64,000 nt of DNA from positions 213,308 through 277,307 of the forward strand of contig JADHMO010000001.1 of the NCBI GenBank assembly GCA_016779995.1. Reading direction: 5' to 3'. The notes under the pieces are model-generated. The model saw only the letters and a program-made list of their open reading frames with translations. It made no database searches and was not told where the DNA came from. The translations under genes and the position numbers were made by a program. Positions 4,533 to 29,720 of the stretch are shown here, piece after piece (positions within the stretch are counted from its first letter, which is position 1; every line of letters begins with the position of its first letter). This DNA comes from Flavobacteriales bacterium. Lineage in GTDB: Bacteria; Bacteroidota; Bacteroidia; Flavobacteriales; UBA7312.

Positions 4533-5630
4533 TTAAGTATTGAACCTAAAATGCATAATATCACCATCGGCAACAACATACTCCTTGCCTTCCACTGACA
4601 TTTTACCATTTTCTTTGCATGCTAATTCAGAACCTAACTCTACAAAATCTGTATATTTAATGACCTCGGCACGAATAAAACCTTTCTCAAAGTCGGTATG
4701 TATTACTCCTGCAGCTTGTGGAGCTTTCATTCCCTCTTTAATGGTCCATGCTCTAACCTCTTTAACTCCTGCCGTAAAATAAGTGGAAAGATTTAACAAC
4801 TGATATGCTGAACGAATAAGTTTACTCACCCCAGGCTCGTCTAAGCCCATATCCTCTAGAAACATTTGGCGTTCTTCATAACTATCAAGTTCTGTTATAT
4901 CTGCTTCTGTAGATGCCGCAATCATTAAAACAGAAGCATCTTCATCTTTTACAATTTCCTTCACTCTATCAACATGAGGATTGCCATTTTTTATGGAAGC
5001 TTCATCAACATTACACACATACATTATTGGTTTATCAGTAAGTAACATTAAGTCAGCAACGTGTTCTTTTTCTTTATCTTCTAAATCTATACTTCTAACT
5101 GATTTACCTTGTTCTAAATGAGCTTTGTATTTGGCTAGAACATCAACAACTTTTCTAGAGTCTTTGTCACCTGTTCGAGATAGCTTTTCATACTTCAGTA
5201 GCTTTTTATCAACAGCTTCTAAATCTTTTAATTGCAATTCTATGTCTATGGTTTCTTTATCTCTAATTGGGTCAACTGAACCATCTACATGAACAATATT
5301 ATCATTTTCAAAACACCTCAACACATGAATAATAGCGTCTGTTTCTCTAATATTAGCTAAGAATTTATTCCCTAAGCCTTCTCCTTTACTAGCTCCTTTT
5401 ACCAATCCAGCAATATCTACAATTTCTATAGTAGTTGGTTGGACTTTTTCAGGTTGTACTAAACGTTCTAACTCATTAAGTCTTTTGTCTGGCACACTAA
5501 TAACACCTACGTTAGGTTCAATAGTACAAAAGGGGAAATTTGCCGATTGCGCTTTGGCATTAGACAAACAATTAAATAATGTCGATTTTCCAACATTTGG
5601 CAAACCTACTATACCACACTTCAAAGCCAT
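4533..5630 (-). CDS. ychF: Redox-regulated ATPase YchF
   Basis: GIVGLPNVGKSTLFN, NFPFCTIEPN, DIAGLVKGASKGEGLGNKFL, HTDFEKGFIRAE. Start moved to MALKCG (5630) because a -7 element lies at 5649-5656. Confidence 0.98.
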   Translation of the reverse strand: MALKCGIVGLPNVGKSTLFNCLSNAKAQSANFPFCTIEPNVGVISVPDKRLNELERLVQPEKVQPTTIEIVDIAGLVKGASKGEGLGNKFLANIRETDAIIHVLRCFENDNIVHVDGSVDPIRDKETIDIELQLKDLEAVDKKLLKYEKLSRTGDKDSRKVVDVLAKYKAHLEQGKSVRSIDLEDKEKEHVADLMLLTDKPIMYVCNVDEASIKNGNPHVDRVKEIVKDEDASVLMIAASTEADITELDSYEERQMFLEDMGLDEPGVSKLIRSAYQLLNLSTYFTAGVKEVRAWTIKEGMKAPQAAGVIHTDFEKGFIRAEVIKYTDFVELGSELACKENGKMSVEGKEYVVADGDIMHFRFNT

Positions 5631-5648
5631 ATCAAAATATATTTTTCG

Positions 5649-5656
5649 CAAAGATA
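5649..5656 (-). promoter_or_regulatory. Bacteroidota sigma-A -7 element for ychF
   Basis: TATCTTTG on the minus strand matches TAnnTTTG, 19 nt upstream of the ATG. Confidence 0.7.
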
Positions 5657-5718
5657 ATCAGCTATTTAAACATTTTTGAAAAAATATTAACAATTGTAAT
5701 TTCCCCTACTAAAAGAAT

Positions 5719-5726
5719 TACATTTG
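5719..5726 (+). promoter_or_regulatory. -7 element for the transketolase operon
   Basis: TACATTTG, 21 nt upstream of the ATG at 5747. Confidence 0.7.
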
Positions 5727-5746
5727 AGAATTAAACTAATTAGACC

Positions 5747-6586
5747 ATGAGTGAGGATTTAAAGGCTATTTGCAATCAAGTTAGAAGAGATATTGTTCGT
5801 ATGGTACATGCTCAAAATTCAGGTCATCCTGGTGGCTCACTCGGTTGCGTTGAGTATTTTGTAGCTCTATATTTCGAAGTTATGAAGCATAATACTGACT
5901 TTGAGATGAATGGTATTGATGAAGATTTATTTTTTCTATCCAACGGTCATATCTCCCCTGTCCTTTATAGTGTGTTAGCAAGAAGAGGATATTTTGATGT
6001 TAAAGAATTATCGACTTTCAGAACCATAAACTCAAGACTTCAGGGACACCCTACCACTCACGATAAACTTCCTGGCGTACGAATTGCCTCAGGCTCTTTA
6101 GGTCAAGGTATGTCAGTAGCAATTGGTGCAGCACTTACTAAAAAATTAAATAATGATTCGTCCATCGTATATAGTTTGCACGGAGATGGTGAATTGCAAG
6201 AAGGGCAAATTTGGGAGGCTGCTATGTATGCTTCTGGCAACAAAGTCGATAATCTAATTTGTACAATTGACTACAATCAAAAGCAAATTGATGGCTCATT
6301 AGAGGAGGTTCTTCCCATGGGAAATATTTCTAATAAATTTAAAGCCTTTGATTGGGAAGTGTTAGAAATAAAGGACGGCAACAACATTTATGATGTTATT
6401 GACGTTTTAAATAAGGCTAAATCATTGTGTGGTAATGGAAAACCCATTTGTATAATTATGCATACTGAAATGGGAAATGGCGTTGATTTCATGATGGGAA
6501 CACACAAATGGCATGGTGTTGCGCCTAACGATGAACAGTTAGCAGATGCTCTGAGTCAAAATCCTGAATCACTTGGTGATTATTAA
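5747..6586 (+). CDS. Transketolase, N-terminal (TPP-binding) subunit
   Basis: SGHPGGSL, LSNGH, LQGHP, GSLGQG, GDGELQEGQIWEA, WHG. Confidence 0.96.
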   Translation: MSEDLKAICNQVRRDIVRMVHAQNSGHPGGSLGCVEYFVALYFEVMKHNTDFEMNGIDEDLFFLSNGHISPVLYSVLARRGYFDVKELSTFRTINSRLQGHPTTHDKLPGVRIASGSLGQGMSVAIGAALTKKLNNDSSIVYSLHGDGELQEGQIWEAAMYASGNKVDNLICTIDYNQKQIDGSLEEVLPMGNISNKFKAFDWEVLEIKDGNNIYDVIDVLNKAKSLCGNGKPICIIMHTEMGNGVDFMMGTHKWHGVAPNDEQLADALSQNPESLGDY

Positions 6587-7963
6587 ATGTTAAATTTAAA
6601 CAAACATATCTTATTAGCTATACTGATAATTTGTATCAGTTTATTAAACCCCTACAAAACCTTTGCCCAAAAAGATAAACCCGTAACTCGTGTTTTATTC
6701 ATATTTGATGCTTCTCAGAGTATGTACGCTCAATGGGACGGAAATAGTAGAATGGAAATTGCCAAAGAATTGCTTAGCAATATGTTAGATAGTCTTGACA
6801 ATAAAGAAAACTTGCAAGTGAGTTTACGATGCTATGGTCATCAAAAACCATCACCGCCTCAAGATTGTAGAGATACTAGGCTAGAAGTTGCTTTTGGAAA
6901 CAATACTATACCTGCCATAAAAAACAGATTAAAAACACTTCGACCAAAAGGCACTACCCCAATTGCAAAAGCACTAGAATCAGGTGCTTTAGATTTTCCT
7001 GCCGTCACCTCCAACTCTAGAAATATCGTTATTCTAATTACAGATGGTATAGAAGAATGTGGCGGAGACCCATGCGCTGTATCTAGACTATACCAAGAGA
7101 AAAAAATCATTCTTAAACCTTTTGTTATTGGTATTGGTCTTAGTGAAGAATACAAGAAAAATTTTGAATGTGTGGGTACTTTTTACGATGCCAGAAATCC
7201 TGATGAATTCAAAAACATTTTAGATGTAGTCATTTCTCAAGTGCTAAACTCAACCACTGCCCAAGTTAATCTACTGGACGAAAATGAAATGCCTACCGAA
7301 ACAAATGTACCCCTCAGCTTTTACGATTCTTTTTCAGGGATTCTACAATACAATTTTATACACACTATGAACAGTAGAGGAAATCCTGATACCTTGAATA
7401 TTGATCCAGTGCTAAGTTATAAAGTTGTTGCCCATACCATACCACAGACAGAAGCAGAAGGAGATTGGAAATTAATACCAGGCAAACACACTACAATACC
7501 AATAAAATGCCCACAAGGCACATTAAGTATTAGTTCTGCAGTTAATAAAACTAAAGTAGAATGTATTGTTAGAGAAAAAGGCAAAACCGAAACCCTAAAC
7601 GTTCAACAACTAAATACTAAACAAAGGTATTTAACAGGTGAATATGAGCTAGAAATTCTGACTTTACCTCGTATTTATGAAACTGTTAAAGTCAATCAAA
7701 GTGAATCTACCAATGTAAAAATTCCTGAACCAGGTTTAGTCGTTTTATCGGCCTCATCATCACCTTATGGAAGTATATTTGAAGTAAGCAATGAACTGAA
7801 ATGGGTTTGCGATTTGAATATCAACAAAGGAAGGCAAGCACTTTACGTATTACCAGGAAAATACAAGGTAGTGTATAGGGCAAAAAATGCCTCTTCTAGC
7901 GAATACACCAAAGAAAAAACATTTAAAGTAAGTTCTATAAAAACCGTATCTCTAAAACTATAA
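6587..7963 (+). CDS. Secreted VWA (MIDAS) domain protein
   Basis: Signal peptide, FIFDASQSM (DxSxS), GTTP, ILITDGIEECGGDPC. Confidence 0.88.
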   Translation: MLNLNKHILLAILIICISLLNPYKTFAQKDKPVTRVLFIFDASQSMYAQWDGNSRMEIAKELLSNMLDSLDNKENLQVSLRCYGHQKPSPPQDCRDTRLEVAFGNNTIPAIKNRLKTLRPKGTTPIAKALESGALDFPAVTSNSRNIVILITDGIEECGGDPCAVSRLYQEKKIILKPFVIGIGLSEEYKKNFECVGTFYDARNPDEFKNILDVVISQVLNSTTAQVNLLDENEMPTETNVPLSFYDSFSGILQYNFIHTMNSRGNPDTLNIDPVLSYKVVAHTIPQTEAEGDWKLIPGKHTTIPIKCPQGTLSISSAVNKTKVECIVREKGKTETLNVQQLNTKQRYLTGEYELEILTLPRIYETVKVNQSESTNVKIPEPGLVVLSASSSPYGSIFEVSNELKWVCDLNINKGRQALYVLPGKYKVVYRAKNASSSEYTKEKTFKVSSIKTVSLKL

Positions 7964-7965
7964 TA

Positions 7966-8901
7966 ATGGAAATGAAAGACACACGCTCAGGATTTGGAGC
8001 AGGATTAACTGAACTTGGAAAAAGCAATCCTAATGTTGTGGCATTATGCGCTGACCTCACAGGTTCGTTGAAGATGAATGAATTTGCAGATAATCATCCT
8101 GAACGTTTTTTTCAAGTAGGTATAGCAGAAGCTAATATGATGGGCATAGCAGCAGGATTAACCATAGGAGGTAAAATCCCTTTCACTGGTACTTTTGCCA
8201 ACTTCTCCACATCCAGAGTTTATGACCAAATCAGACAATCTATAGCCTACTCAGAAAAAAATGTCAAAATATGCGCTTCTCACGCTGGTCTAACTTTAGG
8301 AGAAGATGGTGCTACTCACCAAGTTTTAGAAGATATAGGTATGATGAAAATGTTGCCAGGCATGGTTGTTATCAATCCGTGCGATTATAACCAAACTAAG
8401 GCCGCAACAATAGCCATAGCAGAACATAATGGGCCTGTTTACCTGCGTTTTGGCAGACCTAATGTGCCTAATTTTACCCCTGAAAACCAAAAGTTTGAAA
8501 TAGGAAAAGCGATTTGTCTAAAAGAAGGAAAAGACGTTAGCATTTTTGCTACTGGTCATTTGGTTTGGGAGGCTATGGAAGCACAAAAAGCTTTAGAAGA
8601 ACAAGGAATAAGTGCTGAAATAATAAACATACACACCATTAAGCCACTAGATGAAAAAGCAATTTTAGAGTCTGTAGCCAAAACAAAATGTGTGGTAAGT
8701 GCCGAAGAACATATGTTAAATGGTGGACTTGGCGATAGCATAGCACAATGTCTTTCAAGAAATAACCCCACTCCTATCGAAATGGTAGGTGTAAACGATA
8801 CATTTGGTGAAAGTGGAAAGCCCAAAGAGCTTATGGCTAAATATGGATTAGACTCTCATAATATTGTTAAGGCTGCATTAAAAGTTGTCAAAAGAAAGTA
8901 A
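7966..8901 (+). CDS. Transketolase, C-terminal (pyrimidine-binding) subunit
   Basis: GIAEANM, GEDGATHQ, GPVYLRFGR, TIKPLD, EEH. Confidence 0.96.
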   Translation: MEMKDTRSGFGAGLTELGKSNPNVVALCADLTGSLKMNEFADNHPERFFQVGIAEANMMGIAAGLTIGGKIPFTGTFANFSTSRVYDQIRQSIAYSEKNVKICASHAGLTLGEDGATHQVLEDIGMMKMLPGMVVINPCDYNQTKAATIAIAEHNGPVYLRFGRPNVPNFTPENQKFEIGKAICLKEGKDVSIFATGHLVWEAMEAQKALEEQGISAEIINIHTIKPLDEKAILESVAKTKCVVSAEEHMLNGGLGDSIAQCLSRNNPTPIEMVGVNDTFGESGKPKELMAKYGLDSHNIVKAALKVVKRK

Positions 8902-10090
8902 ATATACAATAGGGCAAAATGTATTTTTTAACCATCAAGCCCAAACTACACCCTTTGCAAATGGTATGGAAATTTCTCATGCCGAAGGAATCTATATTTA
9001 TGACGTCAATAACAAAAAATATTTAGACTTAGTTGCTGGAGTATCTGCCTGTACATTAGGACATAGTCACCCAGCAATTGTACAAAGCGTTAATGAACAA
9101 ATGCAACTTTATGCACATGTAATGGTGTACGGTGAGTATGTTCAATCTCCTCAGTACAAACTTTCACAACTACTAATAGAAAACTTGCCTGAAAGTTTAA
9201 ACTGTACCTACTTAGTAAACTCTGGAACAGAAGCTATTGAAGGTGCTATGAAATTAGCTAAACGTATTACTTCAAAAAATAAGATAATATCTTTTAATAA
9301 CAGTTATCACGGTAGCACACATGGAGCTCTTAGTATTATGGGTAAGGAGCTATATAAAACCAACTACCGCCCACTACTCCCCGATTGTGAATTAATTGAT
9401 TACGATAGCATAGAACAGCTAGTATTAATAGACCACTTAACAGCTGCTGTAGTTGTTGAGCCAATTCAAGGCGCAACAGGATTTAAAGTTCCATCTATAA
9501 AATGGTTAGAAGCTCTCAGACAACGTTGTGATGAAGTAGGTGCGCTGCTCATTTTTGACGAAATACAAACTGGTTTTGGAAGAACTGGTCAATTATTTGC
9601 TATAAACACTTTTGGCGTAACTCCTGATATCCTATGTATAGCTAAAGGCATGGGTGGCGGTATGCCTATTGGTTGTTTCATCAGTTCCAAAAAGAATATG
9701 GATAAACTTAAAGATAATCCTAAACTAGGTCATATTACAACCTTTGGGGGGCATCCCGTTTGTTGTGCTGCATCACTTGCTACTTTAAGTACTCTAATAG
9801 AAGACAGAAACATCATTCAATCTATAGAATATAAAGAGCAGATTTTTAGAGAAAATTTACAACACCCCAAAATTAAAGAAGTGAGAGGCAAAGGCTTAAT
9901 GTTAGCTATAGAATTAGATAGTGAAAAAATCTGTCAATACCTTGTAGAAAAAGGGTACGAACATGGCTTAATTATGTTCTTTTTCTTGTTTACTAATACG
10001 GCAGTACGTTTATCTCCACCACTTATTATTTCTGAAGAAGAAATTATTAAGGCTTGTAATACTATCAAAGACATTTTAAACGAAATATAG
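8885..10090 (+). CDS. Class III PLP aminotransferase (acetylornithine aminotransferase-like)
   Basis: NSGTEAIEGAMK, SYHGST, VEPIQG, DEIQTGFGRTG, AKGMGGG, TTFGGHP. The TTG start overlapping the upstream gene is uncertain. Confidence 0.9.
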   Translation: MSKESKYTIGQNVFFNHQAQTTPFANGMEISHAEGIYIYDVNNKKYLDLVAGVSACTLGHSHPAIVQSVNEQMQLYAHVMVYGEYVQSPQYKLSQLLIENLPESLNCTYLVNSGTEAIEGAMKLAKRITSKNKIISFNNSYHGSTHGALSIMGKELYKTNYRPLLPDCELIDYDSIEQLVLIDHLTAAVVVEPIQGATGFKVPSIKWLEALRQRCDEVGALLIFDEIQTGFGRTGQLFAINTFGVTPDILCIAKGMGGGMPIGCFISSKKNMDKLKDNPKLGHITTFGGHPVCCAASLATLSTLIEDRNIIQSIEYKEQIFRENLQHPKIKEVRGKGLMLAIELDSEKICQYLVEKGYEHGLIMFFFLFTNTAVRLSPPLIISEEEIIKACNTIKDILNEI

Positions 10091-10093
10091 ATT

Positions 10094-10612
10094 ATGAAAA
10101 ACATTCTTTTTTTAGCCACAATTTTTGCGTTCTCTATTGCCTGTGGCACCAATGAAGACAACAGAGGCTACAAGCTTAAAGTTGGTGACAGTTGTCCAGA
10201 TTTCAGCATGGAACTGTTAGATGGAACGACAATTACCAACGAATCGCTACTAGGAAAGGTAAGTGTGATACAATTTACAGCCTCTTGGTGTGGTGTTTGC
10301 AGAAAAGAGATGCCTCATTTGGAAACCGAGGTATGGCAAGAATTTAAAGATGAAGATTTCATTCTTTTAGGGGTAGACTTGAAAGAATCGAAAGAAAAAA
10401 CAACAACATTCATTGAAGAAATGCAAGTAACTTATCCCATAGCATTGGACACAAATGGTCGAGTGTTTGAACAATTTACTCTTCCTAAAGCTGGAGTAAC
10501 ACGAAATATCGTTTTGGATAGAAACGGTAAAATAATCTTCCTTACTCGTTTATTTGATAAAGTGGAGTTTCATCAAATGATTGAAGTTATAAGAAAAGAA
10601 TTAGAGCAATAA
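10094..10612 (+). CDS. TlpA/redoxin family thiol-disulfide oxidoreductase lipoprotein
   Basis: Lipobox SIAC and FTASWCGVC (CxxC). Confidence 0.88.
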   Translation: MKNILFLATIFAFSIACGTNEDNRGYKLKVGDSCPDFSMELLDGTTITNESLLGKVSVIQFTASWCGVCRKEMPHLETEVWQEFKDEDFILLGVDLKESKEKTTTFIEEMQVTYPIALDTNGRVFEQFTLPKAGVTRNIVLDRNGKIIFLTRLFDKVEFHQMIEVIRKELEQ

Positions 10613-21086: not shown

Positions 21087-21149
21087 AAATAAAATTTTTA
21101 GCAAAAGTAGTATAACAATTTCATACCTTTGCAACCTATTGAATTTTGT

Positions 21150-21350
21150 ATGAAAGTCGTTTTATTAGCAATAGCATTATTAGCTATAGGTTTTGCAGGA
21201 ATAGCCATTAAGATACTCGTCAAGAAAGACGGTAAATTTTCTGGTACTTGTGCTAGTAACAGCCCATTCCTTAACAAAGAAGGAGAAAATTGTGGATTTT
21301 GTGGTGCTAGCCCTGACGAAATGTGCAAAAAAGAAGAAGTGGCTAGTTAG
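21150..21350 (+). CDS. Small single-TM, 4-Cys protein (candidate NqrM-like; see findings)
   Basis: MKVVLLAIALLAIGFAGIAIKIL (TM helix), then GKFSGTCAS...CGFCG...C. Confidence 0.75.
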   Translation: MKVVLLAIALLAIGFAGIAIKILVKKDGKFSGTCASNSPFLNKEGENCGFCGASPDEMCKKEEVAS

Positions 21351-22332
21351 TCACTAGTGATTTAAAACCTTCTGTAGACCAATTCTCCCAGCTTTTATCA
21401 GCATTAGTAAATATCAAAAAAGCCTCTAAATTGGGGTGTTTACTTAAAAAGTCTTTAGTCTGCTCCACTCCCATAACCATAAAAGTAGTGGCATAAGCAT
21501 CTGCCGTCATACAATCGTCTGCAATTACAGTAGCACTTAATAGAGAATGCTGAACAGGATAAGCTGTTTTAGGGTTAATAGTATGAGAATATATCTGACC
21601 ATCTTTTTCGTAAAAGTTTCTGTAATTACCAGAAGTTGCTAACGATTTATTGTGAAGGTTTAATATTATTTGAAAGCGGTCGTTTACATCAATCTCATTA
21701 GAAGGTTTGTCTATACCTACTCTCCATTTTTTGTTTCTAGAATTATATCCTTTTGCTCTGAGTTCTCCACCCAATTCAATTAGATAGTCCGAAACTAAAT
21801 GTGAATCCAAAAGCTCAGCAATGACATCTACTGTATAACCTTGAGCAAGAGCATTAAAATCCATAGTTTTTTGTTGAGGATTAGAAAGTAAGCTATCTCC
21901 TTTAAGCCATAAATCCTGATAACCAACCTGTTGTAATAAAGTGGCTATGTGTAAAGAATCGACCTCTTGTCCGTCATTAGGACCAAAACCCCAAGCCTCA
22001 ACTAATGGTGCTACAGTACAATCAAATAATCCATTGCTGAGTGAAGAAATATGCTGAGAGGCTTTAAAAACACGTACAAAATGGGTGTCTAACAACAAAC
22101 TAGTATCACCTGAATTCAATTGACTTAATAATGAATTGGTATTGTAAGTAGATAATGAATGATCAATAACCGTAAGAAGACTGTCTATTTCATGATGATA
22201 ATCCTCTGAACTCATGTATTTGATACTGTATGAAGTACCTTGAGCAAAACCAACATTATGAATCAAGCTTCTAGAGCTATCTAGTCCTTTACAGCCAAAA
22301 AATAAACAAACAATAAAAAACAAGTATCTCAT
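21343..22332 (-). CDS. apbE: FAD:protein FMN transferase ApbE
   Basis: Lipobox FFGC, AQGTSYSIKY, DFNALAQGYTVD, ELGGE, ATSGNYR, HTINPKT, ADAYAT. Confidence 0.95.
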   Translation of the reverse strand: MRYLFFIVCLFFGCKGLDSSRSLIHNVGFAQGTSYSIKYMSSEDYHHEIDSLLTVIDHSLSTYNTNSLLSQLNSGDTSLLLDTHFVRVFKASQHISSLSNGLFDCTVAPLVEAWGFGPNDGQEVDSLHIATLLQQVGYQDLWLKGDSLLSNPQQKTMDFNALAQGYTVDVIAELLDSHLVSDYLIELGGELRAKGYNSRNKKWRVGIDKPSNEIDVNDRFQIILNLHNKSLATSGNYRNFYEKDGQIYSHTINPKTAYPVQHSLLSATVIADDCMTADAYATTFMVMGVEQTKDFLSKHPNLEAFLIFTNADKSWENWSTEGFKSLVTN

Positions 22333-22377
22333 TACACAAAATTATACATTTGTTTCATAGAATTTAAAATATAAGTA

Positions 22378-22833
22378 ATGAAAATTGATGCAATTTCAGT
22401 AGATGATTATTTTGATAAAATTCCTGAAGAAAGGAAGGATATAATGAATAAAATAAGAGCCATTATTAATGCCAATCTTCCTAATGGTTTTGAAGAATGT
22501 TTGGGCTATGGAATGCCTAGTTGGGTAGTGCCTCATTCTATATATCCTCATGGATATCATGTTAGCCCTCAGCTACCATTACCTTTTATGAGTATAGCCT
22601 CACAAAAAAACTTTATTGGACTATATCACATGGGAATATACGCCGACTCAAAATTATTTAAATGGTGGACAGAAGAATATGCTAAGCATTGTAAAAGGAA
22701 GCTAGATATGGGGAAAAGTTGTGTTAGACTTAAGTATTTAGATGAAATACCTTATGATTTAATTGCCGAACTATGTAAAAAAATAAGTGTTAAGGATTGG
22801 ATTAACACCTATGAAAATAGTTTAAAGAGGTAG
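22378..22833 (+). CDS. DUF1801 domain protein
   Basis: GYGMPSWVVPHSIYPHGYH, ASQKNFIGLYHMG, LDMGKSCVR. Confidence 0.88.
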   Translation: MKIDAISVDDYFDKIPEERKDIMNKIRAIINANLPNGFEECLGYGMPSWVVPHSIYPHGYHVSPQLPLPFMSIASQKNFIGLYHMGIYADSKLFKWWTEEYAKHCKRKLDMGKSCVRLKYLDEIPYDLIAELCKKISVKDWINTYENSLKR

Positions 22834-23043
22834 CTATTTCTTTTTAAGATACATTGTTTTAAGTACCACTCGTGTGCCATTCACTTTACAATCAACTTCG
22901 TTAGCATCATCTGTCAAACGGATGTTTTTGACTTTAGTGCCCTTTTTTATGACTAAAGGAGAACCTTTGACGTCAAGAGTTTTAATAACAATGACTGAGT
23001 CACCATTAGATAAAGAATTACCATTACAATCATTTACATCCAT
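22834..23043 (-). CDS. PhnA/YjdM C-terminal domain-only protein
   Basis: DCNGNSLSNGDSVIVIKTLDVKGS...KGTKVKNIRL...LKK. Confidence 0.8.
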   Translation of the reverse strand: MDVNDCNGNSLSNGDSVIVIKTLDVKGSPLVIKKGTKVKNIRLTDDANEVDCKVNGTRVVLKTMYLKKK

Positions 23044-23366: not shown

Positions 23367-23564
23367 TTATTCATTAGATTGCTTATCGCTAGGTAGAACT
23401 GGGATAAATGATTTTTTTATTTTCTGACCACAACTAATGCAGTTTATAAGAATTGAACGAGGCTCGTCTTGGTAATAGTACCTACTAGAAAATGAAGATT
23501 CATCTTTTACTACTTTTCTCTTAAACCTACAAGAACAAAAACCTTGTTTTCTTACTATTTTCAT
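23367..23564 (-). CDS. Hypothetical basic protein with CxC and CxxC (possible zinc ribbon)
   Basis: 65-aa ATG ORF with FCSC and NCISCG. It fills an otherwise empty gap. Confidence 0.5.
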   Translation of the reverse strand: MKIVRKQGFCSCRFKRKVVKDESSFSSRYYYQDEPRSILINCISCGQKIKKSFIPVLPSDKQSNE

Positions 23565-23800: not shown

Positions 23801-25105
23801 TTATCCACCGAAATCATCAAAACGGACATTCTCATCAGGAATACCCCAATCATCAGCCATCTTTAAAACAGCTTGGTTCATAAGTGGTGGACCACAGAAA
23901 TATAATTCTATATCTTCAGGTGCTTCATGTTTGGTTAGGTATTGATCAATTACAGCTTGGTGTACAAAACCAACAAAACCATCACCCTCCTTATCGTCTA
24001 AATCTTTCTTAGGCGTCCAATTATCTTCTTCTAATGGCTCAGACAAAACAATTTCAAAATTAAAGTTTGAAAATTCTTTTTCTAAGCTATAAAAGTGGTC
24101 CAAGTAGAATAACTCTCTCTTTGACCTACCGCCGTACCAATAACTTACTTTTCTACCAGTCTTCAAAGTTTTGAATAACTCATAAAGGTGTGAACGCATT
24201 GGTGCCATTCCTGCACCACCACCGATATATAGCATCTCCGCTTCAGAATTATTGATAAAAAATTCACCGTAAGGCCCTGAAATAGTAACCTTATCTCCAG
24301 CTTTTCTGCTAAAGATGTAAGAAGACGCTACACCTGGATTTACGTCAGCCCATGTATTTTTTGCTCTGTCCCAAGGTGGTGTGGCAACACGAACGTTTAG
24401 CATAACACGTCTACCTTCAGCAGGATAAGAGGCCATAGAGTATGCTCGAACCACTTCTTCATCATTCTTCATCTTAAGTGACCATAAACCGAATTTATCC
24501 CACTCCAATTTGAATTTTTCTGCCTCATCGTGTTCATCAGGATGTGCCGTAATGTCCATATCGGCATAATTGATTTCACAATCAGGAATTTCAATCTGTA
24601 TGTATCCACCTGCTTCGTAGGGCATATCCTCAGGAATTTCTACAATAAACTCCTTAATGAAAGAAGCAACATTATAGTTAGAAACAACTGTGGCTTCCCA
24701 TTTTTTTACACCAAAAACTTCTTCAGGAATAGATATTTCCATATCCTCTTTTACCTTAACCTGACATCCTAAACGGTAGTTGTCTGCAATTTCTTTTTTA
24801 GAGAAGTGTGGTTCTTCAGTAGGTAAGATACCACCACCACCATTATGCACTTGGCAAGTACATTGAATACAGGTACCACCACCACCACAAGCAGACGGTA
24901 AGAATATACCTTCATTACTTAAGGTGTTAAGTAAAGTAGAACCTCCATCGACTTCTATTTCTTTTTCTCCATTGATGGTAATTTTAACTTTACCAGATGG
25001 CATCAGCTTGGCTTTGGCAAATAAAAGAATACCTACCAAGGCGAAAATTACCAATAAAAAAATGGCTATACTTGAAACTATTGTTGTTGTACTTAATATT
25101 ATCAT
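23801..25105 (-). CDS. nqrF: Na+-translocating NADH:quinone reductase subunit F
   Basis: [2Fe-2S] motif [10 protein letters not shown]...[41 protein letters not shown]. Confidence 0.98.
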
Positions 25106-25127
25106 TTGTGTGTTTGTTCTAAACGAA

Positions 25128-25745
25128 TTATAATTTGATTCCCATAAAGCTCATAAACGCAATACCCATAAGACCTGTAATAATAAAGGTGATACCTAGA
25201 CCTCTTAATGGAGCAGGTACATGAGAATAACGTATTTTTTCACGGATAGCGGCAATAGCTACAATAGCTAAAAACCAACCAATTCCAGAACCTAGACCAA
25301 ATACTGTAGCTTCTACAATACTGGTATATGCTCTTTCTTGCATAAATAATGAACCACCCAAAATAGCACAGTTAACGGCTATAAGTGGCAGGAAAATACC
25401 TAAAGAGCCATATAAAGCAGGAGAAAACTTCTCTACAATCATTTCTACTAATTGAACCATAGAAGCAATGATGGCAATGAACATAATGAAACTCAAAAAG
25501 CTTAGGTCTACATCAACGAAAGATTCGCTAAGCCAAACCAAAGCCCCTTGTTTCAAAATGAAATTTTCTAATAAATAGTTGATAGGAATGGTAAAGCCCA
25601 ACACAAAGATGACGGCAAAGCCCATACCAACTGATGTTTTTACTGTTTTGGATACTGCCAAATAGGAACACATCCCTAAAAAGTAGGCGAATATCATATT
25701 GTCAATGAATATCGACTTGATAAATATATTTGCTAATTCTTGCAT
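25128..25745 (-). CDS. nqrE: Na+-NQR subunit E
   Basis: [35 protein letters not shown]. Confidence 0.97.
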
Positions 25746-25755
25746 AGTATCAATA

Positions 25756-26403
25756 TTAAGATTCGATTAAATCTCTGTTTTTCATTCTTTGTATCCAGAT
25801 AATTATACCTACTGTAATAAGTGCCATAGGAGGTAAAATCATCATACCATTGTTTTCGTAACCCATTTCGTAAAGTCCCATTTTTTCAAGTACTGGATAA
25901 CCAAATAGTGTACCAGCACCTAGCAACTCTCTAAAGAATGCTACGACAATTAGTATCCAACCATAACCAAAGGCGTTACCTAAACCATCTAAAAATGATT
26001 TCCAAGGACGGTTTCCTAAAGCAAATGCTTCAAGACGACCCATAATTATACAATTGGTAATGATAAGTCCAACAAATACGGACAGTTCCTTACTTACATC
26101 GTAAACAAAGGCTTTAAGCACTTGGTCAACTAAAATTACTAGAGCAGCAATTACTACTAACTGTACAATAATTCTAATTCTTGATGGAATTAAATTTCTC
26201 ATAAAAGATACCAACACATTGGCAACTGATAGCACCACCAAAACAGAAATAGCCATTACAATAGCTGGTTTCAACTGAACCGTAATTGCTAAAGCAGAAC
26301 AAATACCCAATACTTGAGTAGTAACAGGGTTATTGTCGTTCAAAGGATCTATTAATAGTTTTCTATTTTTCTTAGAAAACAAAGCTTCTTTTTTATCGCT
26401 CAT
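25756..26403 (-). CDS. nqrD: Na+-NQR subunit D
   Basis: [39 protein letters not shown]. Confidence 0.97.
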
Positions 26404-27170
26404 TATTGTATAGTATTTAAATTAAATGCCATTGTACTATCTACTACTAAAGAGTCTGTTGGCAATTCTATCATTTCAGACATTTTTTTATTGAAGAATG
26501 CTAAATACTGACCAAAACGCTCAGCTAACATATCAGTTACACCGTCAGAAGTTATTGTACCACCTGAAATACCATCAACAGCGTGCATATCATCTTCTTT
26601 AGCACCACCCTTGACAACATTGATAGAAACTAACTCCGTTCCTTCAAAAATTGTTTTTCCAATAAACGGCTCTTGAAACCAACCTAATGAAATTTCCGCC
26701 CCTAAACCTGGAGTTTCTGATTTATGATCAAAGACCGCACCAGAAATAGTACTCATATCTTCTTTAAGAGCTACAAAACCCCAGATTGGACCCCATAAAC
26801 CTTTACCTCTCATTGGAAGAATATAAATCTTTTCACCATCTTGTTGACTTTCGAAAACAGGAAGCAATTGTTGATCGGCTGACTTTTTGAGTTCAACTCC
26901 CAAATCAACCGTAAAAGCGTCTCCTTCTACTTCTTCTCCTTTGTTATTAAGAACATAGGTATTGACGATGTTTTTCTCGTAAGCGGCTGCCGCATCTTCA
27001 CGACTAACTTCGATACCAACTGTAGAAAGTATATTCTGTTTCTTTTCCGACTCTATATTTTTGTCTTGAAATGGTTTTAGGCTAATAGCAGCAGCAGATA
27101 GCAAAGTAGCTACCAAGACAACCATTATTGCAGCAAAACCAAAAGTGTAGGAATTTTTATTTACATCCAT
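26403..27170 (-). CDS. nqrC: Na+-NQR subunit C
   Basis: GKGLWGPIWG, ETPGLGAEI, flavinylation motif DGISGGTITS. Confidence 0.97.
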   Translation of the reverse strand: MDVNKNSYTFGFAAIMVVLVATLLSAAAISLKPFQDKNIESEKKQNILSTVGIEVSREDAAAAYEKNIVNTYVLNNKGEEVEGDAFTVDLGVELKKSADQQLLPVFESQQDGEKIYILPMRGKGLWGPIWGFVALKEDMSTISGAVFDHKSETPGLGAEISLGWFQEPFIGKTIFEGTELVSINVVKGGAKEDDMHAVDGISGGTITSDGVTDMLAERFGQYLAFFNKKMSEMIELPTDSLVVDSTMAFNLNTIQ

Positions 27171-27174
27171 AATA

Positions 27175-28320
27175 TTAAGCGTTAGCTCGTTTTAATCTTC
27201 TTTTAATATTTCCTTGAATAACGAAATGATCTACTAATGGTGCAAAGATGTTCATTAATAGAATTGCCAACATCATTCCCTCAGGGTATGCTGGGTTAAA
27301 TACACGAATAACTATGGCAAATACACCGATTAGAAATCCGTATATATATTTTCCTCTATTCGTTTGTGAACCTGTCACAGGGTCTGTTGCCATAAATACA
27401 GCACCAAAAGCAAAACTTCCAATGATTAAGTGAATCTCAGCAGGTGTTGCCATCAATTCGTTTGCACCCCACATATTAAATAGTGTTGCCATAACAAAAC
27501 CTCCAACAAAGGTAGAAAGGATAATTCTCCAACTCCCAATACCTGTAGCTATAAGTATAAGAGCTCCTATCATAATAGCAATGAATGAAGTCTCTCCTAC
27601 TGAACCAGGAATAGTTCCCATCATCATATCAAAAGGATTGAACGATAGGGATTGCCAATTAGCAGATGCTGCTAACTCTCCTAAGATAGTAGAACCCGAG
27701 TGACCATCAACCATAGCGTTGTGTACCCATACTTTATCACCCGACATATATATAGGATAGGCAAAGAATAAAAACGCTCTGGCAGTAAGTGCTGGGTTTA
27801 AAATATTCATACCTGTACCACCAAACACTTCCTTTCCTATTACAACAGCGAAGATGACTGAAATGGCTAACATCCACAATGGTACATCAATTGGCATAGT
27901 AAGAGGAATTAATAATCCTGTTACCAAATATCCTTCGTTTACAGAGTGACCACGATAAATAGCGAAAGCAAATTCAACAGCTAATCCTACTGCATAGGAA
28001 ACAATAATGAGGGGTAAAAACTTCCAAAATCCGAAAATAAAATTCTCAACTAATGTAGCAGTCTCTCCAATAGCAAGGTGGTATTGATAACCAACATTCC
28101 ACATCCCGAATAATAAACATGGAATTAAGGCTACTATAACCATAAACATGGTACGTTTCAAATCAATAGCATCTCTTACGTGAGCACCCTTGTGAGTAGT
28201 ATGATCTGGCACAAACAAAAAGGTCTCAAAAGCATCGTATGCAGGATACAATTTTTCAAGTTTTCCACCTTTTTCAAAGTGAGGTTTTACCGAACCCAAT
28301 AAATTTTTAAATAATTTCAT
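27175..28320 (-). CDS. nqrB: Na+-NQR subunit B
   Basis: DLKRTM, GKEVFGGTGMNILNPAL, DGHSGST flavinylation motif, FMATDPVT, YPEGMMLAIL. Confidence 0.97.
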   Translation of the reverse strand: MKLFKNLLGSVKPHFEKGGKLEKLYPAYDAFETFLFVPDHTTHKGAHVRDAIDLKRTMFMVIVALIPCLLFGMWNVGYQYHLAIGETATLVENFIFGFWKFLPLIIVSYAVGLAVEFAFAIYRGHSVNEGYLVTGLLIPLTMPIDVPLWMLAISVIFAVVIGKEVFGGTGMNILNPALTARAFLFFAYPIYMSGDKVWVHNAMVDGHSGSTILGELAASANWQSLSFNPFDMMMGTIPGSVGETSFIAIMIGALILIATGIGSWRIILSTFVGGFVMATLFNMWGANELMATPAEIHLIIGSFAFGAVFMATDPVTGSQTNRGKYIYGFLIGVFAIVIRVFNPAYPEGMMLAILLMNIFAPLVDHFVIQGNIKRRLKRANA

Positions 28321-28331
28321 AGTAAATAATT

Positions 28332-29681
28332 CTAACTACATTCTTTTTTAACCAAATCTAAGCCTTCACGAATAATGCTTTGAACTTCCATTTTAGAAGT
28401 ACATACAAATTCGCAAAGTGCCATGTCTTCTGCAGACACTTCATAGATACCCAATTGCTCCATAGCATCGATATCTTCAATCATGCACGCTTTGACAAGC
28501 TGCATAGGATAAATATCCATAGGCAAGACTTTTTCGTACTGCCCCGTAACTACATAAGCTCTTTCTTCACCATTGTAGTTTGTATTCAAATTGTATTTCT
28601 TAGCTGGTGTTAACCACGAAAAATACGACTTAGACATCGAGAATTTTTGTAAACCTGGAGCAATCCAACCTAAAAATTCTTGCTCATTACCCTCTGGAAT
28701 TACAGTAATCTGAGAATCGTAAAAGCCAATACAACCGTCAGCAGAAATTTGAGTACCAGTAAGCACATTGCCACTAATAAATCGGTTGCTACCATCTTTA
28801 ATAGAATTTTCAGATATCATATTGGAGATAGATGCGCCAGAAATTGTTCTGTAATAACGTGGTCTTTCAACTTGTGAACCAGTCAAAGCAACAATGCGAG
28901 ATACATCGTATTTGCCATCAGTAAACAAACGTGCAATAGTCAAAACATCTTGTGGATACAAATACCACACCACATCGCCTTTGTTAATAGGGTCTATGTG
29001 ATGAACTTGCACACCAACATTACCTGCTGGGTGAGAGCCAGAAATTTTGTTGATTTCCACTCCTTTACAATCCGTAAATACTTTGGATGGATTGGTATTA
29101 CCATCAACATTGAGGTGTACCTTACCGTCTGTCAATTTCTTAATAACCTCTATTCCTACTTGGAACTCCTTGTCTAAACCATGTAAAACGAAATCGTTAT
29201 CTGGTGCTAAAGGAGCAGTATCAAATGTAGAAATAAATATGGCTTTAGGATTGTCCGAAGGGTTAGCAATCGTATCAAATGGCTTTTGACGAATAAATGG
29301 CCAAACGCCACTATCCAATAAGCCTTTAATAACTTGCTCTCTAGAGGCCTTAGCGTCTAGAGAAAAACTTTCATAACTAACTTCTGAATCGGCAGCAATT
29401 TTAACCTCCATAATTCTACGCTTAGCACCACGAACAATTTCTGTCACTTCACCACTAACAGGCGATGAAAAACGAATGCGTTCGTCATACTTATCGAAGA
29501 ACAAGCACGTACCAGCTTTGACTTTATCACCCTCTTTAACAACCATTTTGGGTGTCAGAGCGTGAAAGTCTGTTGGTTTAATACTAAAATTTTGAGATCG
29601 AGGAATACTGGCGTAAACTTTATCGGCCTCCCCTTGTAGGTTGATATTAAGGCCTTTTTTTAATCTGATATCTTTTGACAT
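28332..29681 (-). CDS. nqrA: Na+-NQR subunit A
   Basis: IRLKKGLNINLQG, SPVSGEV, HPAGNVG, EDMALCEFVCTSK. Confidence 0.97.
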   Translation of the reverse strand: MSKDIRLKKGLNINLQGEADKVYASIPRSQNFSIKPTDFHALTPKMVVKEGDKVKAGTCLFFDKYDERIRFSSPVSGEVTEIVRGAKRRIMEVKIAADSEVSYESFSLDAKASREQVIKGLLDSGVWPFIRQKPFDTIANPSDNPKAIFISTFDTAPLAPDNDFVLHGLDKEFQVGIEVIKKLTDGKVHLNVDGNTNPSKVFTDCKGVEINKISGSHPAGNVGVQVHHIDPINKGDVVWYLYPQDVLTIARLFTDGKYDVSRIVALTGSQVERPRYYRTISGASISNMISENSIKDGSNRFISGNVLTGTQISADGCIGFYDSQITVIPEGNEQEFLGWIAPGLQKFSMSKSYFSWLTPAKKYNLNTNYNGEERAYVVTGQYEKVLPMDIYPMQLVKACMIEDIDAMEQLGIYEVSAEDMALCEFVCTSKMEVQSIIREGLDLVKKECS

Positions 29682-29712: not shown

Positions 29713-29720
29713 CAAAAATA
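29713..29720 (-). promoter_or_regulatory. -7 element for the nqr operon
   Basis: TATTTTTG on the minus strand, 32 nt upstream of nqrA. Confidence 0.6.

What the first reader, a model, noticed from the sequence alone, without database searches (positions are those of the whole stretch)
21150..21350. Candidate NqrM-type Na+-NQR maturation factor next to apbE
The 66-aa protein has one N-terminal TM helix followed by G-T-C and three more cysteines (GTCAS...CGFCG...C). Gammaproteobacterial NqrM (DUF539) has this architecture: a TM helix, GSC and four Cys, encoded next to apbE, and required for the Fe centre of NqrD/E. Here the gene overlaps the apbE stop, about 2.5 kb from nqrF. NqrB (SGST) and NqrC (SGGT) carry the ApbE flavinylation motifs. 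In Flavobacteria such genes are, to my recollection, annotated only as 'membrane or secreted protein'.
Basis: partly seen in the sequence, partly recalled or inferred. Interest (0 to 1): 0.65.

Follow-up and report, generated by a model that had tools for sequence, protein, structure and literature searches.

The report
NQR-linked four-cysteine membrane peptide
This is a real, strongly conserved 66-residue membrane protein with four invariant cysteines, found only in Bacteroidota that carry the sodium-pumping NADH dehydrogenase (Na+-NQR). It is probably their unannotated counterpart of the assembly factor NqrM, although no sequence test shows it belongs to the NqrM family.

Summary
The ORF at 21150-21350 (+) is as described: 66 aa, one N-terminal TM helix, then GTC-x13-C-x2-C-x7-C. 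Its stop overlaps the apbE stop by 8 nt, but tail to tail, and it lies 2.45 kb from nqrF.

It is a real gene. There are 1755 protein clusters, at least 599 species carry it, and third codon positions vary most.

It does not match Pfam NqrM (PF04400) or any NCBIfam model. Profile-profile similarity to NqrM comes mostly from the TM helix, and the tail adds little (3 of 100 shuffles reach the real score).

The link to NQR is very strong:
- In 301 Bacteroidota genomes it occurs in 59 of 76 nqrA+ genomes and 0 of 225 nqrA- genomes, including 0 of 115 apbE+ nqrA- genomes.
- Canonical NqrM occurs in none of the 301.
- Four genera are polymorphic, and X matches NQR exactly in each.
- In one genus (probably Flavobacterium) the murB-GT2 slot holds X only in an NQR+ species.
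- Where X adjoins apbE (35 of 80 species), it is always convergent.
- Seven NQR+ genomes without X carry a different TM+4Cys ORF in the canonical nqrM slot.

Verdict: an NQR-specific factor that most likely works like NqrM. Homology is unproven. I class it as a new variant of a known kind.

The parts
21150..21350 (+). Gene X: 66-aa bitopic membrane protein with four conserved Cys (candidate NqrM counterpart)
   Evidence: Translation; 1755 homologous clusters; purifying selection; strict co-occurrence with nqrA
21153..21221 (+). Codons for the N-terminal transmembrane helix (residues 2-24)
   Evidence: AF2 helix 2-24, pLDDT about 95. The basic flank K21, K25, K26, K29 follows it, so the tail is inferred to be cytoplasmic (positive-inside rule, inference)
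21237..21326 (+). Codons for the conserved tail F30-x-G-T-C34 ... C48-x2-C51-G ... C59
   Evidence: C48, C51, C59 invariant; F30, G32, C34, G52 at least 90% conserved in 90 non-redundant members
21124..21131 (+). TAccTTTG, a match to the Bacteroidetes -7 promoter element, 18 nt before the ATG
   Evidence: Pattern search. The motif is not enriched in the window overall (90 found, 93.6 expected), so this rests on position only. Similar boxes precede apbE (22337-22344, minus strand), mazG, DUF1801 and nqrA
21343..22332 (-). apbE (FAD:protein FMN transferase, lipoprotein-type N-terminus), convergent with X, stops overlapping by 8 nt
   Evidence: PF02424 E 1.1e-80. The convergent X/apbE pair recurs in 19 of 30 and 30-35 of 80 loci of other species
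23801..29681 (-). nqrABCDEF operon (nqrA 28332-29681, nqrB 27175-28320, nqrC 26403-27170, nqrD 25756-26403, nqrE 25128-25745, nqrF 23801-25105)
   Evidence: ORF translations. NqrD ([15 protein letters not shown]) and NqrE ([15 protein letters not shown]) keep the two Cys pairs that, from my knowledge of the Vibrio cholerae enzyme, ligate the intramembrane Fe-S centre. NqrB and NqrC keep the flavinylation motifs

Best explanation
X is an NQR-specific accessory protein of Bacteroidota (Flavobacteriales, Balneolaceae, some Sphingobacteriales and others) that does the job NqrM does in Proteobacteria. One TM helix anchors it in the inner membrane, N-terminus out. Its short cytoplasmic tail presents four cysteines (G-T-C34 ... 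C48-x2-C51 ... C59). These would bind iron, or a nascent Fe-S unit, and pass it to the four-Cys site formed by NqrD and NqrE during assembly of the pump. Shown here: the gene is real, has this architecture, is absent wherever NQR is absent, is present in nearly all NQR+ genomes of its lineages, is often placed next to nqrF-apbE, and moves with the nqr cluster. Inferred: the topology, the metal binding and the hand-over to NqrD/E. Open: whether X is a very diverged homologue of PF04400 or an independent analogue.
For: (1) Architecture matches canonical NqrM sequences read from Providencia, Klebsiella, Leisingera, Aeromonas, Neisseria and Qingshengfaniella: TM helix, basic flank, G-S/T-C about 9 residues after the helix, four Cys in all. 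The alphaproteobacterial form has C-x11-C-x2-C, close to X's C-x13-C-x2-C. (2) A gene is missing. PF04400 is absent from the window's genome and scores above cut-off in 0 of 301 Bacteroidota genomes, yet NqrD and NqrE keep their Cys ligands. (3) Phyletic pattern. X is in 59 genomes and nqrA in 76. All 59 are nqrA+, and 0 of 225 nqrA- genomes has X (Fisher p 1e-47). ApbE is in 191 genomes, and none of the 115 apbE+ nqrA- genomes has X. (4) Polymorphic genera g2, g71, g79 and g117 match exactly (chance about 2e-7 given set sizes). (5) Same slot, with and without. In g2, NQR+ G187 has murB-X-GT2, while NQR- G263 and G203 have murB-GT2 abutting. NQR+ G239 carries X behind nqr-apbE instead. (6) In an independent named sample, 49 of 50 species whose X is more than 8 kb from nqr have nqrA elsewhere, and 23 further species have nqr in the flank. 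(7) Neighbourhood: nqrF-apbE followed by convergent X in 19 of 30 and 30 of 80 loci, spanning Bacteroidia and Rhodothermia. A 42%-identical relative also lies 2.3 kb from apbE-nqrFEDCBA. (8) Complementarity: the 7 NQR+ genomes of family f30 that lack X carry another TM+4Cys ORF (KYK..SGCCGGG[NH]C..C) directly after apbE on the same strand, in the canonical nqrM slot. (9) hhalign against NqrM gives Prob 93, P 2e-7, with the tail adding about +3.5 sd over tail-shuffled controls.
Against: There is no HMM-level similarity to PF04400 for X or any of 90 relatives, and BLASTP finds nothing. Most of the hhalign score is the TM helix. With the tail columns shuffled the mean score is 28-30 against 36-37 real, and 1 of 200 and 3 of 100 shuffles reach the real score. 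The tails alone score 11.1 against 8.1 (sd 1.9). X is convergent with apbE and nqr, so it is not co-transcribed with them as nqrM is in Vibrio (PMC12174285). In Flavobacteriaceae X sits in a murB / ECF-sigma / anti-sigma-like / sigma / NRAMP / lipA block, far from nqr. Ten NQR+ genomes of one genus (g67) have no detectable small Cys peptide of either kind, so such a factor is not universally required. Five NQR+ genomes carry distant relatives that have lost three of the four Cys. There is no expression or biochemical data (one search found only DNA metagenomes).
Confidence: 0.65

Rival explanations
1. X is a small accessory subunit, or a stabilising or regulatory partner, of the mature Bacteroidota NQR complex. 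It would stay bound to the membrane subunits instead of acting transiently in cofactor insertion.
For: Co-occurrence and neighbourhood fit a subunit as well as an assembly factor. The protein is very strongly conserved, 65-79% identity between Flavobacteriales and Balneolaceae. Cys-poor relatives persist in NQR+ genomes, which argues that metal binding is not always the point.
Against: X is never inside the nqr operon and is always on the opposite strand when adjacent, which is unusual for a stoichiometric subunit. The four Cys are invariant across the main family. From my own knowledge, Vibrio NQR structures contain six subunits and no NqrM-like chain. A profile search of PDB sequences finds no such chain.
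Confidence: 0.2
2. X is a metal- or redox-sensing membrane peptide that works with a sigma / anti-sigma pair or a metal transporter. Its tie to NQR would be indirect, for example through shared ecology or iron economy.
For: In many Flavobacteriaceae X lies between an anti-sigma-like gene and a sigma-70/ECF-type gene, followed by NRAMP and lipA. A CGCG-type relative is followed by an ECF sigma gene. Ten of 90 members give weak hits to FeoB-associated Cys-rich peptides (PF12669), best E 0.087.
Against: That neighbourhood is confined to Flavobacteriaceae and is a housekeeping block (murB, lipA) that exists without X in NQR- congeners. Elsewhere X sits beside apbE-nqr. X has no anti-sigma domain and no H-x3-C-x2-C motif (sequence). 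The exact within-genus match to NQR is hard to explain by ecology alone.
Confidence: 0.08
3. X is a true, highly diverged member of the PF04400 NqrM family, that is, a homologue and not merely an analogue. This refines the best explanation and does not oppose it.
For: hhalign Prob 93%, aligning the TM helix, the basic flank and G-T-C with G-S-C. X has the same number of Cys. Cys spacing is plastic within X's own family (C-x6-C-x-C-x9-C in G131; C-x-C forms P0388 and P0394) and within NqrM (C-x-C in gamma, C-x2-C in alpha forms).
Against: The controls show the tail contributes only marginally (3 of 100 shuffles). The CxC-type sub-profile does no better (4 of 100). X shows no signal against the variant in the canonical nqrM slot beyond the TM helix. 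My NqrM profile was shallow (Neff about 2.9, two orders plus three single sequences).
Confidence: 0.3

Closest known systems
NqrM (DUF539, Pfam PF04400), the Na+-NQR maturation factor of Vibrio and Klebsiella (Kostyrko et al. 2016, J Bacteriol 198:655; not held in the library, cited from memory and via PMC12174285 and PMC6209661)
   Same: About 60-80 aa; a single N-terminal TM helix followed by Lys/Arg; G-S/T-C shortly after the helix; four conserved Cys; found only in NQR-bearing genomes; often next to apbE and nqrF.
   Different: No PF04400 HMM match. GTCAS(N/Q)(N/S)P stands in place of GSCGG. Spacing is C-x13-C-x2-C-x7-C, against C-x11-C-x-C-x3-C (gamma) or C-x11-C-x2-C-x16-C (alpha). X is convergent with apbE, not co-directional, and in Flavobacteriaceae it is unlinked from nqr. 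Its function has not been tested.
Second Bacteroidota variant found here (alignment A3: TM-KYK-x-SGCCGGG[NH]C-x(n)-C), encoded directly after nqrF-apbE on the same strand in the seven NQR+ genomes of family f30
   Same: Same size, TM helix and four Cys. It occurs with strong scores only in NQR+ genomes (weak hits, E 3e-4 to 4e-3, in four nqrA- genomes), and its distribution is complementary to X.
   Different: No detectable sequence relation to X beyond the TM helix. It occupies the canonical nqrM position and strand. It gives weak hits to PF12669, not to PF04400.
FeoB-associated Cys-rich membrane protein (Pfam PF12669)
   Same: A small bitopic peptide with a Cys-rich cytoplasmic tail, linked to an iron-handling membrane system. 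Ten of 90 X relatives give weak hits.
   Different: Best E 0.087, far below the 27-bit cut-off. X has no feoB neighbour in the window. X tracks NQR.

Membership tests
NqrM (PF04400 / DUF539) | Scores above the PF04400 gathering cut-off (22 bits) | tested here: not met
   No hit at E<=1 for X. PF04400 is not among the 25 families matched by most of the 90 relatives at E<=10 and is not hit by 10 divergent relatives scanned singly. No six-frame hit in the genome at E<=10.
NqrM (PF04400 / DUF539) | Profile-profile similarity to bona fide NqrM beyond the generic TM helix | tested here: inconclusive
   hhalign Prob 93, score 36-37. Tail-shuffled controls give mean 28-30, sd 1.6-2.0, with 1 of 200 and 3 of 100 reaching the real score. 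Tails alone score 11.1 against 8.1 (sd 1.9).
NqrM (PF04400 / DUF539) | Single N-terminal TM helix followed by a basic flank | tested here: met
   AF2 helix 2-24. The sequence KILVKKDGK compares with YIIKRKSIQ in Providencia NqrM.
NqrM (PF04400 / DUF539) | Four conserved Cys in the tail | tested here: met
   C34 at least 90% conserved; C48, C51, C59 invariant in 90 members.
NqrM (PF04400 / DUF539) | GSCGG signature and the family's Cys spacing | tested here: not met
   X has GTCAS and C-x13-C-x2-C-x7-C. NqrM has GSCGG and C-x11-C-x1/2-C-x3/16-C.
NqrM (PF04400 / DUF539) | Gene co-directional downstream of nqrF/apbE (co-transcribed in V. cholerae, PMC12174285) | tested here: not met
   X is adjacent to apbE but convergent in the window and in every adjacent case elsewhere (19 of 19; 35 of 35).
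NqrM (PF04400 / DUF539) | Present only in genomes that encode Na+-NQR | tested here: met
   59 of 59 X+ genomes are nqrA+ and 0 of 225 nqrA- genomes has X. 49 of 50 in a second sample.
NqrM (PF04400 / DUF539) | Required for production of functional NQR; the first Cys essential | not testable with these tools
   Needs genetics and biochemistry.
FeoB-associated Cys-rich membrane protein (PF12669) | Scores above the PF12669 cut-off (27 bits) | tested here: not met
   Best 13.5 bits, E 0.087, in 10 of 90 members. X itself has no hit.
Zinc-binding anti-sigma factor (ZAS) | N-terminal cytoplasmic anti-sigma domain with H-x3-C-x2-C | tested here: not met
   The sequence starts with the TM helix, and the protein has no His. 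No Pfam anti-sigma hit.

The most novel reading that the evidence does not exclude
X, the CCGGG variant found here and proteobacterial NqrM may be independent inventions, or divergences past recognition, of one solution: a membrane-anchored Cys4 peptide dedicated to loading the buried Fe-S centre of NqrD/E. In that case almost every NQR lineage has its own chaperone, and X is the first such factor identified for the marine Flavobacteriia and Balneolaceae. The conserved tail-to-tail overlap with apbE might further couple the expression of the two maturation factors through convergent transcription.
Probability: 0.3. Interest if true: 0.65.

Novelty: new variant of a known kind. Interest (0 to 1): 0.55.

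Why it matters
Na+-NQR is the main respiratory NADH dehydrogenase of many marine Flavobacteriia, Balneolaceae and host-associated Bacteroidota, and its only known Fe-centre assembly factor (PF04400) is absent from the whole phylum. The family found here spans at least 599 species and is so far named only 'membrane or secreted protein' or 'hypothetical'. It gives a concrete candidate for that missing step and a gene to co-express when producing Bacteroidota NQR in E. coli. It is also a clear target for a new Pfam or NCBIfam model. Finally, it suggests that the need for a small Cys4 membrane helper is general while its sequence is not.

Tried and rejected
- Pfam and NCBIfam scans of X, 90 relatives and 18 close relatives found no NqrM, only sub-threshold zinc-ribbon, FeoB-associated and FixS noise.
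- BLASTP of X against Providencia and Leisingera NqrM found nothing.
- hhalign looked good (Prob 93) until column-shuffle controls showed the TM helix carries it. A CxC-type sub-profile did not help.
- The AF2 model is confident only for the helix, and Foldseek against PDB and a PDB sequence profile found nothing.
- Four long proteins in the representative search (P0248, P0345, P0363, P0377) are spurious multi-stretch hits without the motif.
- I searched for X or another Cys peptide in the ten g67 genomes, near nqr, near apbE and genome-wide with a loose threshold. This found only CcoS/FixS-like peptides.
- Weak PF04400 six-frame hits in Bacteroidota (L005, L008) are not family members.
- ApbE linkage as the real driver is rejected: 115 apbE+ nqrA- genomes lack X.
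- The small 4-Cys ORF directly after nqrF in the window (23367-23564) was considered as an alternative NqrM candidate. It is rejected as general because only 3 of 25 relatives have it.
- The original NqrM papers (PMC4751810, PMC6964743) are not held.
- No RNA runs exist for this organism.
- The listing of cluster members gave no taxon names for distant members.

Full report
**The observation**

The window holds an ORF at 21150..21350 on the plus strand. It encodes MKVVLLAIALLAIGFAGIAIKILVKKDGKFSGTCASNSPFLNKEGENCGFCGASPDEMCKKEEVAS.
- A TTG 21 nt upstream would give 73 aa, but homologues mostly begin at the M-K start.
- Residues 2-24 form a hydrophobic helix (AF2 pLDDT about 95).
- The helix is followed by four lysines and then four cysteines at 34, 48, 51 and 59.
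- The stop codon (21348-21350) overlaps by 8 nt the stop of apbE (21343..22332, minus strand; PF02424 E 1e-80). The two genes are therefore tail to tail.
- Upstream, mazG (20322..about 21086, minus strand) is divergent.
- nqrF ends at 23801, and nqrA-F occupy 23801..29681 on the minus strand.
- A DUF1801 gene, a yjdM/phnA-type gene and two small ORFs lie between apbE and nqrF.
- NqrB (DGHSGST) and NqrC (DGISGGT) have the flavinylation motifs.
- NqrD and NqrE keep the two Cys pairs that, from my knowledge of the Vibrio enzyme, hold the intramembrane Fe-S centre.

It did not mention the convergent orientation.

**It is a real gene**

- A word-indexed search found 1755 homologous 90% clusters. 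None has a Pfam domain, and where NCBI names them it calls them 'membrane or secreted protein'.
- An exhaustive phmmer search over 1.84 billion representatives found 228 clusters at E<=1e-3. Four long proteins among them are spurious.
- In 90 non-redundant members, C48, C51 and C59 are invariant. F30, G32, C34 and G52 are at least 90% conserved.
- The consensus is TM - K(K)DG(K/E)F.GTCAS(N/Q)(N/S)P.L...G..C..CG..P.E.C.
- Among 80 orthologues, codon-position entropy is 0.67/0.32/1.48, and 58% of differing codons are synonymous.
Named examples come from Flavobacteriaceae, Cryomorphaceae, Crocinitomicaceae, Schleiferiaceae, Salibacteraceae, Vicingaceae, Weeksellaceae, Sphingobacteriales and Balneolaceae.

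**Is it a member of the NqrM family?**

Sequence tests fail or are marginal:
- I found no PF04400 or NCBIfam hit for X, for 90 relatives or for the most divergent relatives.
- A six-frame scan of the whole genome also found no PF04400 match.
- I took real NqrM sequences from annotated nqr loci in PLSDB: Providencia, Klebsiella, Leisingera, Aeromonas, Neisseria and Qingshengfaniella. I added about 230 more from two protein searches.
- BLASTP finds nothing.
- hhalign of the X family against NqrM gives Prob 93%, P 2-4e-7 over 50 columns, aligning G-T-C with G-S-C.

The controls weaken that last result. With the NqrM helix kept and the tail columns shuffled, the score is still 28-30 (sd 1.6-2.0) against 36-37 real. 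One of 200 and 3 of 100 shuffles reach the real score. The tails alone give 11.1 against 8.1 (sd 1.9).

Homology is therefore suggestive, not shown. My NqrM profile was shallow.

What is shared is the architecture: size, one TM helix, a basic flank, G-S/T-C about nine residues after the helix, and four Cys. The alphaproteobacterial NqrM spacing (C-x11-C-x2-C) is close to X's (C-x13-C-x2-C). Spacing also varies inside X's own family, for example FKKTC-x6-C-S-C-x9-C in G131, which sits at the same mazG-adjacent position, and the C-G-C forms.

**The link to NQR**

I searched the same 301 Bacteroidota genomes four ways.

| Query | Genomes with a match |
|---|---|
| PF04400 above cut-off | 0 |
| X family | 59 |
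| NqrA | 76 |
| ApbE | 191 |

- Every X+ genome is nqrA+, and none of the 225 nqrA- genomes has X (Fisher p about 1e-47).
- None of the 115 apbE+ nqrA- genomes has X, so X follows NQR, not ApbE.
- The match does not depend on deep phylogeny alone. In four genera that are polymorphic for NQR, the X+ set equals the NQR+ set: g2 (2 of 11), g71 (4 of at least 17), g79 (2 of 5) and g117 (1 of 4). The chance of this is about 2e-7 given the set sizes.
- In g2, which is in Flavobacteriaceae (f2) and by its gene order matches the named Flavobacterium loci, NQR+ G187 has murB-X-GT2.
  - NQR- G263 and G203 have murB and GT2 abutting.
  - Six further NQR- species have other DNA in that slot but no X.
  - NQR+ G239 carries X behind its nqr-apbE cluster instead.
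- In a second sample of 50 named species whose X has no nqr gene within 8 kb, 49 have nqrA elsewhere. The exception is a 1.5-Mb MAG.

**Neighbourhood**

- In 19 of 30 loci from the genome sample and 30 of 80 named species, the order is nqrF, apbE, then X on the opposite strand. The gaps run from 6 to about 160 nt.
- In five more species apbE is within 3.2 kb, again convergent.
- No adjacent case has the two genes on the same strand.
- This arrangement spans Flavobacteriales families and Balneolaceae. I identified f29 as Balneolaceae and f2 as Flavobacteriaceae through 100% identical named loci.
- A 42%-identical relative from an unidentified 5-Mb genome lies 2.3 kb from apbE-nqrFEDCBA.
- In Flavobacteriaceae X sits in a conserved block: murB, then in some an ECF sigma and a 252-aa anti-sigma-like gene, X, in some GT2, a sigma-70-type gene, in some NRAMP, then lipA. 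This is far from nqr. In several other families murB also precedes X.
- In the window and in f7 genomes the upstream neighbour is a divergent mazG.
- A TAnnTTTG box lies 18 nt before the ATG, which fits an own promoter. The motif is not enriched in the window as a whole, so this is weak evidence.

**NQR+ genomes without X**

There are 17 such genomes.
- The seven of family f30 carry another small ORF directly after nqrF-apbE on the same strand, in the canonical nqrM slot. It has a TM helix followed by KYK-x-SGCCGGG(N/H)C-x(n)-C.
- A profile of these six sequences gives strong hits only in those seven genomes. It shows no relation to X beyond the helix, and a marginal tail signal against NqrM (2 of 100 shuffles).
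- The ten of genus g67 have nqr with apbE elsewhere. I found no small Cys peptide near either gene, nor with loose genome-wide searches.
- Six of the 59 X+ calls are weak hits (E 6e-8 to 1e-3). One (G131) is the C-x-C variant noted above. The other five are distant relatives that keep the helix and the K-K-x-G-K-F segment but have only one Cys in the tail. All six are in NQR+ genomes.

So a small bitopic peptide accompanies NQR in most lineages, but its sequence is not fixed. Neither the four Cys nor the peptide itself is universal.

**Mechanism**

The best-supported reading is that X works like NqrM.
- It is anchored with the N-terminus out.
- The lysine-rich flank places the Cys tail in the cytoplasm (inference from the positive-inside rule).
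- There the four thiols would bind Fe or a nascent Fe-S unit and deliver it to the NqrD/E Cys4 site during assembly.

The role of NqrM itself is taken from the literature (PMC12174285, PMC6209661, and my memory of Kostyrko et al. 2016). Only the NQR-specific association and the architecture are shown here. Metal binding and transfer are inferred.

The main rival is a small accessory subunit or stabiliser of the mature complex, which genomic data cannot separate from a chaperone. A sigma-factor-linked sensor role is suggested by the flavobacterial neighbourhood, but it does not explain the NQR-exact distribution.

**Comparison and novelty**

The closest known protein is NqrM (PF04400). X shares its architecture, its phyletic logic and partly its location. 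It differs in signature motif, Cys spacing, strand arrangement and failure of every family model. I therefore do not file it as a PF04400 member. I rate it as a new variant of a known kind.

I found no paper in the held library that describes an NqrM counterpart in Bacteroidota.

Earlier unchecked notes of this scan report the same family beside apbE or upstream of an ECF sigma gene in other genomes. They also report other NqrM-like peptides in nqr and rnf clusters. I used these as leads only. The ECF/NRAMP lead was checked.

**Verdict**

| Question | Result |
|---|---|
| Observation | confirmed |
| Confidence that X is NQR-specific | about 0.95 |
| Confidence that X acts as an NqrM-like maturation factor | about 0.65 |
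| Interest | 0.55 |

Noticed in passing
window 23367-23564 (-): A 65-aa ORF lies directly downstream of nqrF on the same strand. It has four Cys (C-x-C ... C-x2-C) and no TM helix. It has no Pfam hit and was found in only 3 of 25 relatives, so it is lineage-specific or spurious.
   Followed up: partly
L055 8531-8731 (-), L058 6905-7114 (+), L059 8357-8575 (-), L061 6914-7120 (+), L062 8649-8861 (-), L063 6897-7124 (+): A second unannotated NqrM-like family (TM-KYK-x-SGCCGGG[NH]C-x(n)-C) lies directly after nqrF-apbE, co-directional, in seven NQR+ genomes of one Bacteroidota family (f30). It is missed by PF04400 and gives weak PF12669 hits.
   Followed up: partly
L186 3037-3270, L187 2978-3214, L188 2968-3252, L189 3043-3258, L190 2941-3249 (all +): These are Cys-poor distant relatives of X (TM-KKNGKFPNxHIGxN...GIxC, one Cys in the tail). 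They sit in NQR+ genomes of other orders and are not near nqr or apbE. Their function relative to X is unexplained.
   Followed up: partly
genomes G021, G050, G078, G086, G114, G202, G206, G214, G274, G298 (loci L047-L054, L056, L057, L082-L091): One genus (g67) has nqrA-F with apbE unlinked and no detectable small Cys-rich membrane peptide. Either NQR matures there without such a factor or a third variant exists.
   Followed up: partly
L125, L143, L158-L160, L164 and others, about 5300-10200: Flavobacteriaceae have a conserved block: murB, ECF sigma, a 252-aa anti-sigma-like gene, X, a sigma-70-type gene, NRAMP in some, then lipA. X sits between regulatory genes and next to iron- and Fe-S-related genes.
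   Followed up: partly
window 22337-22344 (-), 22345-22352 (+), 21102-21109 (-), 29713-29720 (-): TAnnTTTG boxes sit just upstream of apbE, DUF1801, mazG and nqrA. apbE therefore seems to have its own promoter, separate from the nqr operon.
   Followed up: no
window 22378-23043: A DUF1801 gene (+) and a yjdM/phnA-type zinc-ribbon gene (-) are inserted between apbE and nqrF. In most relatives apbE follows nqrF directly.
   Followed up: no
PLSDB records CP125156.1 (5.37 Mb Klebsiella), NZ_CP119142.1 (2.17 Mb Neisseria), NZ_OL790811.1 (4.08 Mb Proteus), NZ_AP026896.1 (4.94 Mb Aeromonas): These records are labelled as plasmids but are chromosome-sized and carry the chromosomal nqr operon. The plasmid label looks wrong.
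   Followed up: no
G199:C1:158823-160336: nqrA matches in two pieces (residues 1-266 and 248-446) in separate open frames. This may be a frameshift or an assembly error in an otherwise X+ genome.
   Followed up: no
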